DNA from: Escherichia coli
GTDB lineage: Bacteria; Pseudomonadota; Gammaproteobacteria; Enterobacterales; Enterobacteriaceae
DNA length: 64,000 bases
Direction: 5' to 3' (one strand)
Assembly (NCBI RefSeq): GCF_017348835.2
Contig: NZ_CP071375.1
Positions 27,001 through 30,000 of this stretch are shown piece by piece. Each line of letters starts with the position of its first letter. Within the stretch, counting starts at the first letter, position 1. Position numbers: made by a program.

Positions 27001-30000
27001 TCAGGTCACTAATCTGGATACTCGCGTTACTAATATCGAAAACGGTATTGGCGACATCGTAACCACCGGTAGCACCAAGTACTTCAAGACTAACACCGAT
27101 GGCGTAGATGCCAATGCCCAGGGTAAAGATAGCGTTGCTATTGGTTCTGGTTCCATTGCTGCCGCTGACAACAGCGTCGCTCTGGGTACAGGCTCCGTGG
27201 CCAACGAAGAAAACACGATCTCTGTGGGTTCTTCTACCAACCAACGCCGTATCACCAACGTAGCTGCCGGTGTTAATGCCACCGATGCGGTTAACGTGTC
27301 GCAGCTGAAATCTTCTGAAGCAGGCGGCGTGCGCTACGACACCAAAGCTGATGGTTCTATCGACTATAGCAATATCACCCTCGGTGGTGGCAACGGCAGT
27401 ACGACTCGTATCAGCAACGTCTCCGCTGGCGTCAACAACAACGACGCGGTGAACTACGCGCAGTTGAAGCAAAGCGTGCAGGAAACGAAGCAATACACCG
27501 ATCAGCGGATGGTTGAGATGGATAACAAACTGTCTAAAACTGAAAGCAAGTTGAGCGGTGGTATCGCTTCTGCAATGGCAATGACCGGTCTGCCGCAGGC
27601 TTACACTCCAGGTGCCAGCATGGCCTCTATTGGTGGCGGTACTTACAACGGTGAATCGGCTGTTGCTTTAGGTGTATCGATGGTGAGCGCCAATGGTCGT
27701 TGGGTCTACAAATTACAAGGTAGTACCAATAGCCAGGGTGAATACTCCGCCGCACTCGGTGCCGGTATTCAGTGGTAATGATCCATTAAGTTAGTGTGAC
27801 TAAGGGCAAACGCCAAATTGCCTGATGCGCTACGCTTATCAGGCCTACAGGGTGATTCTGCACATTCCTATAGGCCGGGTAAGGTGTTCACGCCGCATCT
27901 GGCAAGATAAGGCGCTCCGGGTCAACAATCTAAGGGCAATTCTCTGATGAGGATTGCCCTTTTCTTTACCAGACATCTCCCCCCACAAGAATTGGCCCTA
28001 CCAATTCTTCGCTTATCTGACCTCTGGTTCACAATTCCCCAATTAAAACTCACATCAATGTTGCCAATACATAACATTTAGTTAACCATTCATTGTCATT
28101 ATCCCTACACAACACAATTGGCAGTGCCACTTTTACACAACGTGTGACAAGGAGATGAGCAACAGACTCATTACACGATGTGCGTGGACTCCAGGAGACC
28201 TGCAATGAATCTCTGGCAACAAAACTACGATCCCGCCGGGAATATCTGGCTTTCCAGCCTGATAGCATCGCTTCCCATCCTGTTTTTCTTCTTTGCGCTG
28301 ATTAAGCTCAAACTGAAAGGATACGTCGCCGCCTCATGGACGGTGGCAATCGCCCTTGCCGTGGCTTTGCTGTTCTATAAAATGCCGGTCGCTAACGCGC
28401 TGGCCTCGGTGGTTTATGGCTTCTTCTATGGTTTGTGGCCCATCGCGTGGATCATTATTGCAGCAGTGTTCGTCTATAAGATCTCGGTGAAAACCGGGCA
28501 GTTTGACATCATTCGCTCGTCTATTCTTTCGATAACCCCAGACCAGCGCCTGCAAATGCTGATCGTCGGTTTCTGTTTCGGCGCGTTCCTCGAAGGAGCT
28601 GCAGGCTTTGGCGCACCGGTAGCAATTACCGCCGCATTGCTGGTCGGTCTGGGCTTTAAACCACTGTACGCCGCCGGGCTGTGCCTGATTGTTAACACCG
28701 CGCCAGTGGCATTTGGCGCGATGGGCATTCCAATCCTGGTTGCCGGACAGGTAACAGGTATCGACAGCTTTGAGATTGGTCAGATGGTGGGGCGGCAGCT
28801 ACCGTTTATGACCATTATCGTGCTGTTCTGGATCATGGCGATTATGGACGGCTGGCGCGGTATCAAAGAGACGTGGCCTGCGGTCGTGGTTGCGGGCGGC
28901 TCGTTTGCCATCGCTCAGTACCTTAGCTCTAACTTCATTGGGCCGGAGCTGCCGGACATTATCTCTTCGCTGGTATCACTGCTCTGCCTGACGCTGTTCC
29001 TCAAACGCTGGCAGCCAGTGCGCGTATTCCGTTTTGGTGATTTGGGGGCGTCACAGGTTGATATGACGCTGGCCCACACCGGTTACACTGCGGGTCAGGT
29101 GTTACGTGCCTGGACACCGTTCCTGTTCCTGACCGCTACCGTAACACTGTGGAGTATCCCGCCGTTTAAAGCCCTGTTCGCTTCGGGCGGCGCGCTTTAT
29201 GAATGGGTGATCAACATTCCGGTGCCGTATCTCGACAAACTGGTTGCTCGTATGCCGCCGGTCGTCAGCGAAGCTACCGCTTACGCCGCCGTATTTAAGT
29301 TTGACTGGTTCTCTGCCACTGGCACCGCCATTCTGTTTGCTGCGCTGCTCTCGGTTGTCTGGCTGAAGATGAAACCGTCTGACGCTATCAGCACCTTCGG
29401 CAGCACGCTGAAAGAACTGGCTCTGCCCATCTACTCCATCGGTATGGTGCTGGCATTCGCCTTTATTTCGAACTATTCCGGACTGTCATCAACACTGGCG
29501 CTGGCACTGGCGCACACCGGTCATGCATTCACCTTCTTCTCGCCGTTCCTCGGCTGGCTGGGGGTATTCCTGACCGGGTCGGATACCTCATCTAACGCCC
29601 TGTTCGCCGCGCTGCAAGCCACCGCAGCACAACAAATTGGCGTCTCTGATCTGTTGCTGGTTGCCGCCAATACCACCGGTGGCGTCACCGGTAAGATGAT
29701 CTCCCCGCAATCTATCGCTATCGCCTGTGCGGCGGTAGGCCTGGTGGGCAAAGAGTCTGATTTGTTCCGCTTTACTGTCAAACACAGCCTGATCTTCACC
29801 TGTATGGTGGGCGTGATCACCACGCTTCAGGCTTATGTCTTAACGTGGATGATTCCTTAATGATTGTTTTACCCAGACGCCTGTCAGACGAGGTTGCCGA
29901 TCGTGTGCGGGCGCTGATTGATGAAAAAAACCTGGAAGCGGGCATGAAGTTGCCCGCTGAGCGCCAACTGGCGATGCAACTCGGCGTATCACGTAATTCA

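What the first reader, a model, noticed from the sequence alone, without database searches (positions are those of the whole stretch)
27990..28129. Two palindromic LldR-type operators flanking the lldP promoter
AATTGGCCCTACCAATT and AATTGGCAGTGCCA lie about 125 bp apart upstream of lldP. This fits the two-operator DNA-looping model described for LldR. Operator O1 falls only ~30 bp after the terminator of the inserted adhesin locus, showing that the insertion left the lld regulatory region intact.
Basis: partly seen in the sequence, partly recalled or inferred. Interest (0 to 1): 0.25.

Follow-up and report, generated by a model that had tools for sequence, protein, structure and literature searches.

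The report
Known LldR operators of lldPRD promoter
The two palindromes are the already published binding sites (O1 and O2) of the lactate-sensing regulator LldR on either side of the E. coli lactate-operon promoter, identical to those of strain K-12, so the finding is correct but ordinary.

Summary
Confirmed, and already known. AATTGGCCCTACCAATT (27990-28006) and AATTGGCAGTGCCACTT (28116-28132) lie 126 bp apart, centre to centre, upstream of lldP (ATG 28205). At most one mismatch to AATTGGCNNNGCCAATT gives 2 hits in 64 kb, both here, against 0.02 expected. They are letter for letter the two LldR boxes listed for the K-12 yibL/lldP spacer in a genomic SELEX study, which says they agree with the operators of Aguilera et al. 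2008. The K-12 region differs by one base outside the boxes, and LldR is 100% identical. With the start site 110 nt before the ATG (recalled, paper not held), the boxes fall at -105..-89 and +22..+38, the published O1 and O2 positions. An ArcA-like box lies between them at -23..-9. O1 is also a published PdhR box. Boxes and 125-126 bp spacing recur in Escherichia, Kluyvera and Silvania.

One part needs correcting. The adhesin locus (SadB-like gene plus EhaG/UpaG-type adhesin) is not an insertion relative to K-12. It adjoins lldP in about 76% of complete E. coli genomes and in E. albertii. The K-12 arrangement ends inside a REP element, and E. whittamii keeps an adhesin remnant. Both look like deletions. 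The terminator 21-28 nt before O1 is also present in K-12.

The parts
27990..28006 (.). LldR operator O1, AATTGGCCCTACCAATT. It falls at -105..-89 if the TSS is 28095. It is the higher-affinity site, needed for lactate activation, and is also a published PdhR box.
   Evidence: Sequence. Identical to AAtTGGcCctACCAaTT in PMC10272880 Table 1, to the 17-mer quoted in PMC3582500 and to the PdhR box scored 13/14 in PMC7660256. Position computed.
28116..28132 (.). LldR operator O2, AATTGGCAGTGCCACTT. It falls at +22..+38, downstream of the start site, and is needed for repression.
   Evidence: It is the reverse complement of AAgTGGcactgCCAaTT in PMC10272880 Table 1. Invariant in 5 divergent E. coli sequences. 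Position computed.
28050..28115 (+). Core lldPRD promoter region (-45..+21). The inferred TSS is G28095, 110 nt before the ATG. No good sigma-70 consensus is present, which fits an activator-dependent promoter.
   Evidence: The promoter scan finds no consensus site. The block is 79-85% identical between E. coli and Kluyvera/Silvania, against 18-33% upstream of O1. The TSS distance is recalled from the Aguilera 2008 abstract.
28072..28086 (-). ArcA-like box GTTAACTAAATGTTA at -23..-9, overlapping the -10 region.
   Evidence: One mismatch to GTTAATTAAATGTTA, and the only hit of that quality in the window. PMC8689689 places the ArcA operator between -80 and +1. ArcA directly represses lldPRD (PMC3798270). 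The consensus itself is from memory.
27932..27968 (+). Intrinsic terminator: a 13-bp stem, a 4-nt loop and TTTTCTTT. It closes the adhesin transcription unit here and the yibL unit in K-12.
   Evidence: -20.9 kcal/mol, z -5.3. Present in K-12, in E. albertii and, with different stem bases, in the Rfam STnc380 consensus.
27817..27915 (.). BIME (pair of REP elements) between the adhesin stop codon and the terminator. The K-12 deletion ends inside its left REP, at about 27845/27846.
   Evidence: Multi-copy matches in E. coli genomes (median 17 places per genome). Inverted arms I1, I4 and I6. Partial naRNA4/REP match at 27873-27913. K-12 alignment.
28205..29860 (+). lldP, L-lactate permease, the first gene controlled by the operators.
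   Evidence: Pfam Lactate_perm, E 1e-235. RefSeq annotation of homologous records.
29860..30636 (+). lldR, the GntR/FCD (FadR-subfamily) regulator that binds O1 and O2.
   Evidence: Pfam GntR plus FCD. 258/258 identical to the K-12-type LldR.

Best explanation
These are the two operators of the lactate-responsive regulator LldR in the E. coli lldPRD promoter. O1 (27990-28006) lies about 100 bp upstream of the transcription start and O2 (28116-28132) lies just downstream of it. In the published model, LldR dimers occupy both sites when L-lactate is absent and contact each other. The centres are 126 bp apart, which is 12.0 helical turns, so both sites face the same side of the helix. The intervening promoter DNA is looped out and transcription is repressed. 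With lactate, LldR changes conformation, the repression that needs O2 is lost, and LldR at O1 activates the weak promoter. ArcA-P (box at -23..-9) shuts the promoter off without oxygen, and PdhR can also use O1. Shown here: the sequences, their statistical significance, their identity to the K-12 sites, an intact and identical lldR, conserved boxes and spacing in related genera, and the position of the ArcA-like box. Taken from the literature: LldR binding, the dual repressor/activator role and phase dependence. Inferred: the loop itself, and that all of this operates in this strain.
For: Sequences and coordinates are, and the chance test (2 found, 0.02 expected). Both 17-mers are identical to the two LldR boxes of the yibL/lldP spacer, the strongest genomic SELEX peak (intensity 62.9) in PMC10272880. 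That paper states they agree with the two sites of Aguilera et al.. PMC3582500 quotes AATTGGCCCTACCAATT as the sequence LldR requires. PMC3424551 says the two sites lie on either side of the transcription start, that both are needed for repression, and that the upstream one is needed for activation. PMC8689689 and PMC5412874 describe looping, angular orientation and O1/O2. The K-12-type spacer is identical from 27846 to the ATG except at five positions, only one of which (28037) lies between the terminator and the ATG, and LldR is 258/258 identical. Three recalled numbers fit together: a TSS 110 nt before the ATG, O1 at -105..-89 and O2 at +22..+38. All three map exactly onto 28095, 27990-28006 and 28116-28132. 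The 240-nt regulatory region occurs once in 5420 of 5426 E. coli genomes at 90% identity or more. Among five divergent E. coli sequences O2 is invariant and O1 varies at one base in one strain. In ten Escherichia, Kluyvera, Silvania and related genomes the box-to-box distance is 125-126 bp, although the 43 bp after O1 are only 37-60% identical, and alignable sequence stops at the upstream edge of O1.
Against: No binding or expression experiment was done on this strain. The primary paper (Aguilera 2008, PMC2293229) is not held, so the exact footprint positions and the TSS rest on my recollection of its abstract plus secondary citations. The cross-genus set was retrieved with a pattern that demanded AATTGG-N5-CCAATT and AATTGG-N5-CCA. 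Conservation of those letters is therefore by construction, and only the central bases, the last three bases of O2 and the spacing (free within 99-119) are independent. Salmonella, Citrobacter and Klebsiella were not recovered by that pattern. O2 matches the published LldR-box consensus at only 10 of 14 positions and does not appear within 3 mismatches of it. Looping has been inferred from phasing mutants and has not been observed directly.
Confidence: 0.95

Rival explanations
1. O1 acts mainly as a PdhR (pyruvate-sensing repressor) box rather than an LldR site, or is shared between the two paralogous regulators, tying lactate uptake to the pyruvate pool.
For: O1 matches the PdhR box at 13 of 14 positions, lies under a PdhR SELEX peak, and lldPRD mRNA rises 3.3-fold in a pdhR mutant (PMC7660256). 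PdhR is LldR's closest solved relative. The same two-box layout precedes pdhR-aceE in Aliivibrio.
Against: LldR gives its strongest genome-wide SELEX peak here, and lactate induction is lost in an lldR mutant (PMC10272880). As I recall it, Aguilera 2008 found no effect of a pdhR mutation on lldP-lacZ. This reading adds a second user of O1 and does not replace LldR.
Confidence: 0.3
2. The stretch 27923-28031 on the minus strand encodes a small RNA homologous to the Salmonella candidate STnc380, and the O1 palindrome is an RNA stem rather than, or as well as, a protein-binding site.
For: Rfam RF02055 matches over its full length (1-108) at 37.1 bits, E 5.6e-6. The model pairs the O1 palindrome and the terminator hairpin as two stems.
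Against: The score is well below the family's gathering threshold of 60. On the minus strand the hairpin is followed by AGAUUGUUG with no U-tract, whereas on the plus strand it is a textbook terminator. The two 'stems' are explained by a DNA operator palindrome and a plus-strand terminator. No promoter-like site was found on either strand.
Confidence: 0.05
3. The two palindromes are chance AT-rich symmetric sequences in an intergenic spacer, with no function.
For: At 3 mismatches the motif is no commoner than in shuffled sequence. O2 is a poor match to the generalised LldR-box consensus.
Against: Two hits at no more than 1 mismatch against 0.02 expected. Exact identity with experimentally bound K-12 sites. 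Conservation with fixed spacing across genera while flanking DNA diverges.
Confidence: 0.01

Closest known systems
E. coli K-12 lldPRD promoter operators O1 and O2 (Aguilera et al. 2008, J Bacteriol 190:2997; LldR boxes of Anzai et al. 2023, PMC10272880)
   Same: Both 17-mers are identical. So are the 126-bp spacing, the position relative to the lldP ATG, the ArcA-like box between them and the LldR protein. The whole 240-nt region differs at one base.
   Different: Only the upstream context differs. Here the spacer follows a SadB-like gene, an EhaG/UpaG-type adhesin and a complete BIME. K-12 has a roughly 6.2-kb deletion that brings yibL to within about 140 bp of the shared terminator.
PdhR box of the pdhR-aceEF-lpd and other PdhR-regulated promoters (consensus AATTGGTnnnACCAATT)
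   Same: The same 17-bp palindrome class, recognised by a paralogous FadR-subfamily GntR regulator. O1 scores 13/14 and is bound by PdhR in SELEX.
   Different: The effector is pyruvate rather than lactate. The role of PdhR at lldP is disputed. O2 is a weaker match to the box.
Two-operator loop repression systems (lac O1/O2/O3, gal OE/OI, deo, ara O2/I1)
   Same: Two operators bracket the promoter, and repression depends on helical phasing between them.
   Different: LldR is a GntR/FCD dimer whose tetramerisation is inferred. The same protein at the upstream site becomes an activator when the inducer binds. The loop is short (126 bp) and has not been shown directly.

Membership tests
LldR operator pair of lldPRD (O1/O2) | Sequence identical or near-identical to the experimentally bound K-12 sites | tested here: met
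   O1 and O2 equal the two boxes in PMC10272880 Table 1 and O1 equals the 17-mer in PMC3582500. The alignment to a K-12-type genome is identical at both boxes.
LldR operator pair of lldPRD (O1/O2) | 17-bp palindrome of the LldR-box type (AAnTGGTCnGACCAnTT) | tested here: met
   O1 scores 12/14 and O2 10/14 in the source paper. Internal symmetry is 6/8 and 7/8 pairs. O2 is a weak match to the generalised consensus.
LldR operator pair of lldPRD (O1/O2) | One site upstream and one downstream of the transcription start (-105..-89 and +22..+38) | tested here: met
   With the TSS 110 nt before ATG 28205, the coordinates reproduce both ranges exactly. PMC3424551 confirms the sites lie on either side of the start. 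The numbers themselves are recalled, because the primary paper is not held.
LldR operator pair of lldPRD (O1/O2) | Cognate regulator gene lldR present and intact in the operon | tested here: met
   GntR plus FCD domains. 258/258 identity to K-12-type LldR.
LldR operator pair of lldPRD (O1/O2) | Operators on the same face of the helix (an integral number of turns apart) | tested here: met
   126 bp is 12.0 turns at 10.5 bp per turn.
LldR operator pair of lldPRD (O1/O2) | LldR binding, loop formation and lactate response in this strain | not testable with these tools
   Needs EMSA or footprinting and reporter assays.
PdhR box | Match to the PdhR consensus, and PdhR binding | tested here: met
   O1 is listed as AATTGGccctACCAATT, 13/14, under a PdhR SELEX peak in K-12 (PMC7660256). 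The sequence is identical here.
Rfam RF02055 STnc380 sRNA | Covariance-model score at or above the gathering threshold (60 bits) | tested here: not met
   37.1 bits on the minus strand at 27923-28031.
Rho-independent terminator | GC-rich hairpin followed by a T-tract on the transcribed strand | tested here: met
   27932-27961 plus TTTTCTTT. -20.9 kcal/mol, z -5.3.
ArcA box | 15-bp direct-repeat motif GTTAATTAAATGTTA within the ArcA-protected promoter region | tested here: inconclusive
   One mismatch at 28072-28086 on the minus strand, inside the -80..+1 segment said to hold the ArcA operator. The consensus is recalled, and the Lynch & Lin 1996 footprint is not held.

The most novel reading that the evidence does not exclude
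The two-box layout with about 12-13 helical turns between boxes may be a general, conserved design of the LldR/PdhR branch of FadR-type regulators, not a peculiarity of E. coli lldPRD. A scan of one genome per species for two AATTGG-N5-CCAATT-type boxes 99-119 nt apart returned 61 loci, against roughly 3 expected by chance on my own estimate. About 48 of them lie next to lldP or a GntR/FCD gene. They include pdhR-aceE in Aliivibrio, Vibrio and Salinivibrio, and an unrelated GntR/FCD operon in Paenibacillus. If so, loop-type repression switching to activation could apply widely to PdhR-like regulators. E. coli PdhR itself is usually described with a single box.
Probability: 0.3. Interest if true: 0.3.

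Novelty: already known. Interest (0 to 1): 0.08.

Why it matters
It adds little new biology. It confirms that a non-K-12 E. coli carrying the EhaG/UpaG-type adhesin next to lldP has exactly the textbook LldR/ArcA/PdhR control region, so K-12 results and lactate-biosensor parts built on O1/O2 transfer directly to it. The useful correction is evolutionary. The adhesin locus is the common and probably ancestral state in Escherichia, and K-12 carries a deletion ending in a REP element about 145 bp upstream of O1. Across genera, conservation stops at the upstream edge of O1, which marks the functional limit of the lld control region.

Tried and rejected
1. I tried to read the primary paper (Aguilera 2008) by PMC id and by PubMed id. 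It is not held. Lynch & Lin 1996, for the ArcA footprint, is not held either. Exact footprint coordinates therefore rest on recollection plus secondary sources.
2. The sigma-70 consensus scan found no promoter-like site in 27700-28300, so I do not assign -35 or -10 hexamers.
3. I first read the duplicated CTAAGGGCAA (27800 and 27930) as a target duplication from a BIME insertion, because strain 1428 has one copy and no BIME. I rejected this because E. albertii and B2-type E. coli also carry the BIME. Strain 1428 more likely lost it by recombination between the repeats.
4. I looked in the window for the origin of the 11-bp filler GAACACAGTAT at the K-12 junction and found no match.
5. A literature search for STnc380, to learn its Salmonella location, returned only an unrelated name, STnc3800.
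6. I did not run a protein search to fetch the Salmonella sadBA-lldP context. The adjacency of sadA (STM3691) and lldP (STM3692) is from memory only.
7. The MAFFT alignment misplaced the Pantoea sequence, so I excluded it from the conservation statistics.

Full report
**What is in the sequence.** The window is an E. coli chromosome segment in the order mtlD-mtlR-yibT-yibL, then a 227-aa ORF (22204-22887), then a 1615-aa trimeric autotransporter adhesin (22931-27778), then lldP-lldR-lldD. The adhesin carries the ESPR, YadA_head, YadA_stalk and YadA_anchor domains. AATTGGCCCTACCAATT lies at 27990-28006. The boxes are 126 bp apart centre to centre, which is 12.0 turns at 10.5 bp per turn. O1 has perfect 6-bp arms and O2 has 7 of 8 symmetric pairs. 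The annotated lldP ATG is at 28205, preceded by AGGAG. The ORF listing reports an earlier in-frame ATG at 28178, which is not the annotated start.

**Is it more than chance?** Allowing one mismatch to AATTGGCNNNGCCAATT, the 64-kb window has two matches, both here. Shuffles give 0.02 on average, and none of 100 reached two. At three mismatches the pattern is at chance level, so the evidence rests on the near-perfect pair.

**Identity with the published operators.** The genomic SELEX study of LldR in K-12 (PMC10272880) lists AAtTGGcCctACCAaTT and AAgTGGcactgCCAaTT for the yibL/lldP spacer, its strongest peak. The second is the reverse complement of the O2 17-mer here. The study states that both agree with the two LldR sites reported by Aguilera et al.. 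PMC3582500 quotes AATTGGCCCTACCAATT from Aguilera 2008 as the sequence LldR requires. PMC3424551 summarises that work as follows: two sites lie on either side of the transcription start, both are needed for repression, and the upstream one is needed for lactate-dependent activation. PMC8689689 and PMC5412874 give the looping and angular-orientation model and place the native -35, the -10 and the ArcA operator between O1 and O2.

The primary paper is not held. From memory, its abstract gives a start site 110 nt upstream of the ATG, O1 at -105 to -89 and O2 at +22 to +38. With the ATG at 28205 the start site is 28095, and the two boxes then fall exactly on those ranges. Three recalled numbers that fit both palindromes to the base are unlikely to be misremembered.

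**Comparison with K-12.** A K-12-type RefSeq genome (NZ_CP062249) aligns without gaps from window 27846 to the lldP ATG. It differs at five positions, all outside the boxes. Only one of them, 28037 (C here, T in K-12, about -58), lies between the terminator and the ATG. LldR is 258/258 identical. The K-12 experiments therefore apply directly to this strain.

**Other regulators at the same promoter.**
- GTTAACTAAATGTTA on the minus strand (28072-28086, -23..-9) has one mismatch to the ArcA box as I recall it, and is the only match of that quality in the window.
- ArcA directly represses lldPRD (PMC3798270).
- O1 is also listed as a 13/14 PdhR box under a PdhR SELEX peak, and lldPRD is derepressed 3.3-fold in a pdhR mutant (PMC7660256).
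- No sigma-70 consensus is found, which fits a weak promoter that depends on an activator.

**Conservation within E. coli.** The 240 nt from the terminator to the ATG occur once per genome in 5420 of 5426 complete E. coli genomes: 3393 at 99% identity or more, 1960 at 95-99% and 67 at 90-95%. Five divergent sequences, including two from the weakest-matching rows (94.0% and 95.4% identity), share an invariant O2. O1 changes at one base in one strain (G at position 1). Several substitutions fall between the boxes and in the leader.

**Conservation across genera.** A scan of one genome per species for AATTGG-N5-CCAATT-N(99-119)-AATTGG-N5-CCA returned 61 loci. Among them, E. albertii, E. whittamii, two unnamed Escherichia species, three Kluyvera species, Silvania confinis and an unnamed enterobacterial genome carry the boxes directly upstream of lldPRD.

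| Feature | Escherichia | Other genera |
|---|---|---|
| O1 | AATTGGCCCTACCAATT | AATTGGCCCAACCAATT |
| O2 | AATTGGCAGTGCCACTT | AATTGGCAGGGCCA(A/C)TT |
| Box-to-box distance | 125-126 bp | 126 bp |

Identity between the window and the five non-Escherichia genomes varies by segment:

| Segment | Identity |
|---|---|
| 60 bp upstream of O1 | 18-33% (unalignable) |
| 43 bp after O1 | 37-60% |
| -45..+21 block | 79-85% |

A caveat applies. The arm letters were demanded by the search pattern, so only the centres of the boxes, the spacing and the flanks are independent evidence. Genera whose boxes differ at a demanded base, which may include Salmonella, would have been missed. The Rfam STnc380 consensus does contain the exact reverse complement of O1 next to a homologous hairpin. 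From its name I take this family to be built from Salmonella sequences; its seed and its position in Salmonella were not checked here.

**The upstream context and the 'insertion'.** The hairpin at 27932-27961 plus TTTTCTTT is a strong intrinsic terminator (-20.9 kcal/mol, z -5.3). It is not adjacent to the adhesin gene, however. It lies 153 nt after the stop codon, beyond a pair of REP elements (a BIME, about 27817-27915). Three results identify the BIME: multi-copy matches in E. coli genomes, a partial naRNA4/REP match and inverted arms. K-12, which has no adhesin, keeps the hairpin.

Several results indicate that the K-12 arrangement is a deletion.
- 4149 of 5426 genomes (76%) match across the adhesin 3' end into lldP.
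- E. albertii and Escherichia sp. E1V33 have the SadB-like gene and the adhesin next to lldP, and E. albertii also has the same BIME and terminator.
- The K-12 junction retains only the last bases (CTACAGG) of the left REP, preceded by 11 unrelated bases directly after the yibL stop. A truncated REP is a deletion scar.
- E. whittamii has a different scar. It keeps the AT-rich sequence that follows yibL in this window, a 67-aa internal adhesin fragment and the right half of the terminator.

The locus is therefore ancestral within Escherichia and was lost more than once. Kluyvera and Silvania have yibL-lldP with no adhesin, so an older gain in the Escherichia lineage cannot be excluded.

**Verdict.** The main interpretation, LldR operators O1 and O2 bracketing the lldPRD promoter, is supported and already known. 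'Inserted' should read 'deleted in K-12', and the terminator is shared with K-12. Interest is low.

**Side observations.**
- The ORF at 22204-22887 is a SadB homologue (PDB 4c47, E 3.6e-71).
- A 17-codon ORF (28155-28208) follows AAGGAG, and its stop overlaps the lldP ATG. It is not conserved as a reading frame in Kluyvera or Silvania.
- The two-box layout also precedes pdhR-aceE in Aliivibrio and a GntR/FCD operon in Paenibacillus.

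Noticed in passing
window 21659-27845, compared with L001 2990-3001: The K-12-type genome lacks about 6.2 kb (SadB-like gene, adhesin and the left REP) and has 11 unrelated bases (GAACACAGTAT) in its place. The right end of the deletion lies inside a REP element. About 24% of complete E. coli genomes lack the adhesin 3' end next to lldP.
   Followed up: yes
L059 7940-8320 (Escherichia whittamii): An independent deletion scar at the same locus. The AT-rich sequence after yibL is retained, followed by a 67-aa internal adhesin fragment (81% identical) and only the right arm of the terminator, then O1.
   Followed up: partly
window 27923-28031, minus strand: A sub-threshold but full-length match to Rfam STnc380 (37.1 bits against a gathering score of 60, E 5.6e-6). 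The model's two stems are the O1 palindrome and the terminator hairpin. Its consensus holds the exact reverse complement of O1 and a hairpin whose stem differs from the E. coli one at paired positions. There is no U-tract on this strand.
   Followed up: partly
window 27800-27809 and 27930-27939; L003 (strain 1428): A 10-bp direct repeat, CTAAGGGCAA, brackets the BIME. The second copy is the left arm of the terminator. Strain 1428 has one copy and no BIME, so its terminator sits about 20 nt after the adhesin stop. E. albertii has the BIME, so strain 1428 probably lost it.
   Followed up: partly
window 28155-28208: A 17-codon leader ORF ([17 protein letters not shown]) lies directly after AAGGAG, and its TGA overlaps the lldP ATG (ATGA). 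It is intact in B2 E. coli and E. albertii, but most changes are non-synonymous. In Kluyvera it is ATG AGC TGA, and in Silvania the frame differs. The surrounding nucleotides (GAGATGAGC...AGACTCA, a 5-bp stem ATGAG/CTCAT) are conserved across genera.
   Followed up: partly
window 22204-22887: An ORF with no Pfam hit, upstream of the adhesin, is a clear homologue of the inner-membrane lipoprotein of PDB 4c47 (E 3.6e-71). From memory, that protein is SadB, the Salmonella helper for SadA surface display. It is co-conserved with the adhesin in E. albertii (74% identity).
   Followed up: partly
L056 5879-9585 (Aliivibrio sifiae); L049 4802-7119 (Paenibacillus lautus); about 34 further loci: Two perfect AATTGG-N5-CCAATT boxes 125-135 bp apart lie upstream of GntR/FCD regulators 32-35% identical to LldR. 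In Aliivibrio the regulator gene is followed by the pyruvate dehydrogenase E1 gene (pdhR-aceE). In Paenibacillus it is followed by an AtuA-family gene and ABC-transporter genes.
   Followed up: partly
L005 (CALXDF010000207.1, labelled as an uncultured Oscillospiraceae MAG): This contig carries yibL, the SadB-like gene, the adhesin and lldP, with LldP 100% identical to E. coli. It is almost certainly an Escherichia contig mis-binned into a Firmicutes MAG.
   Followed up: no
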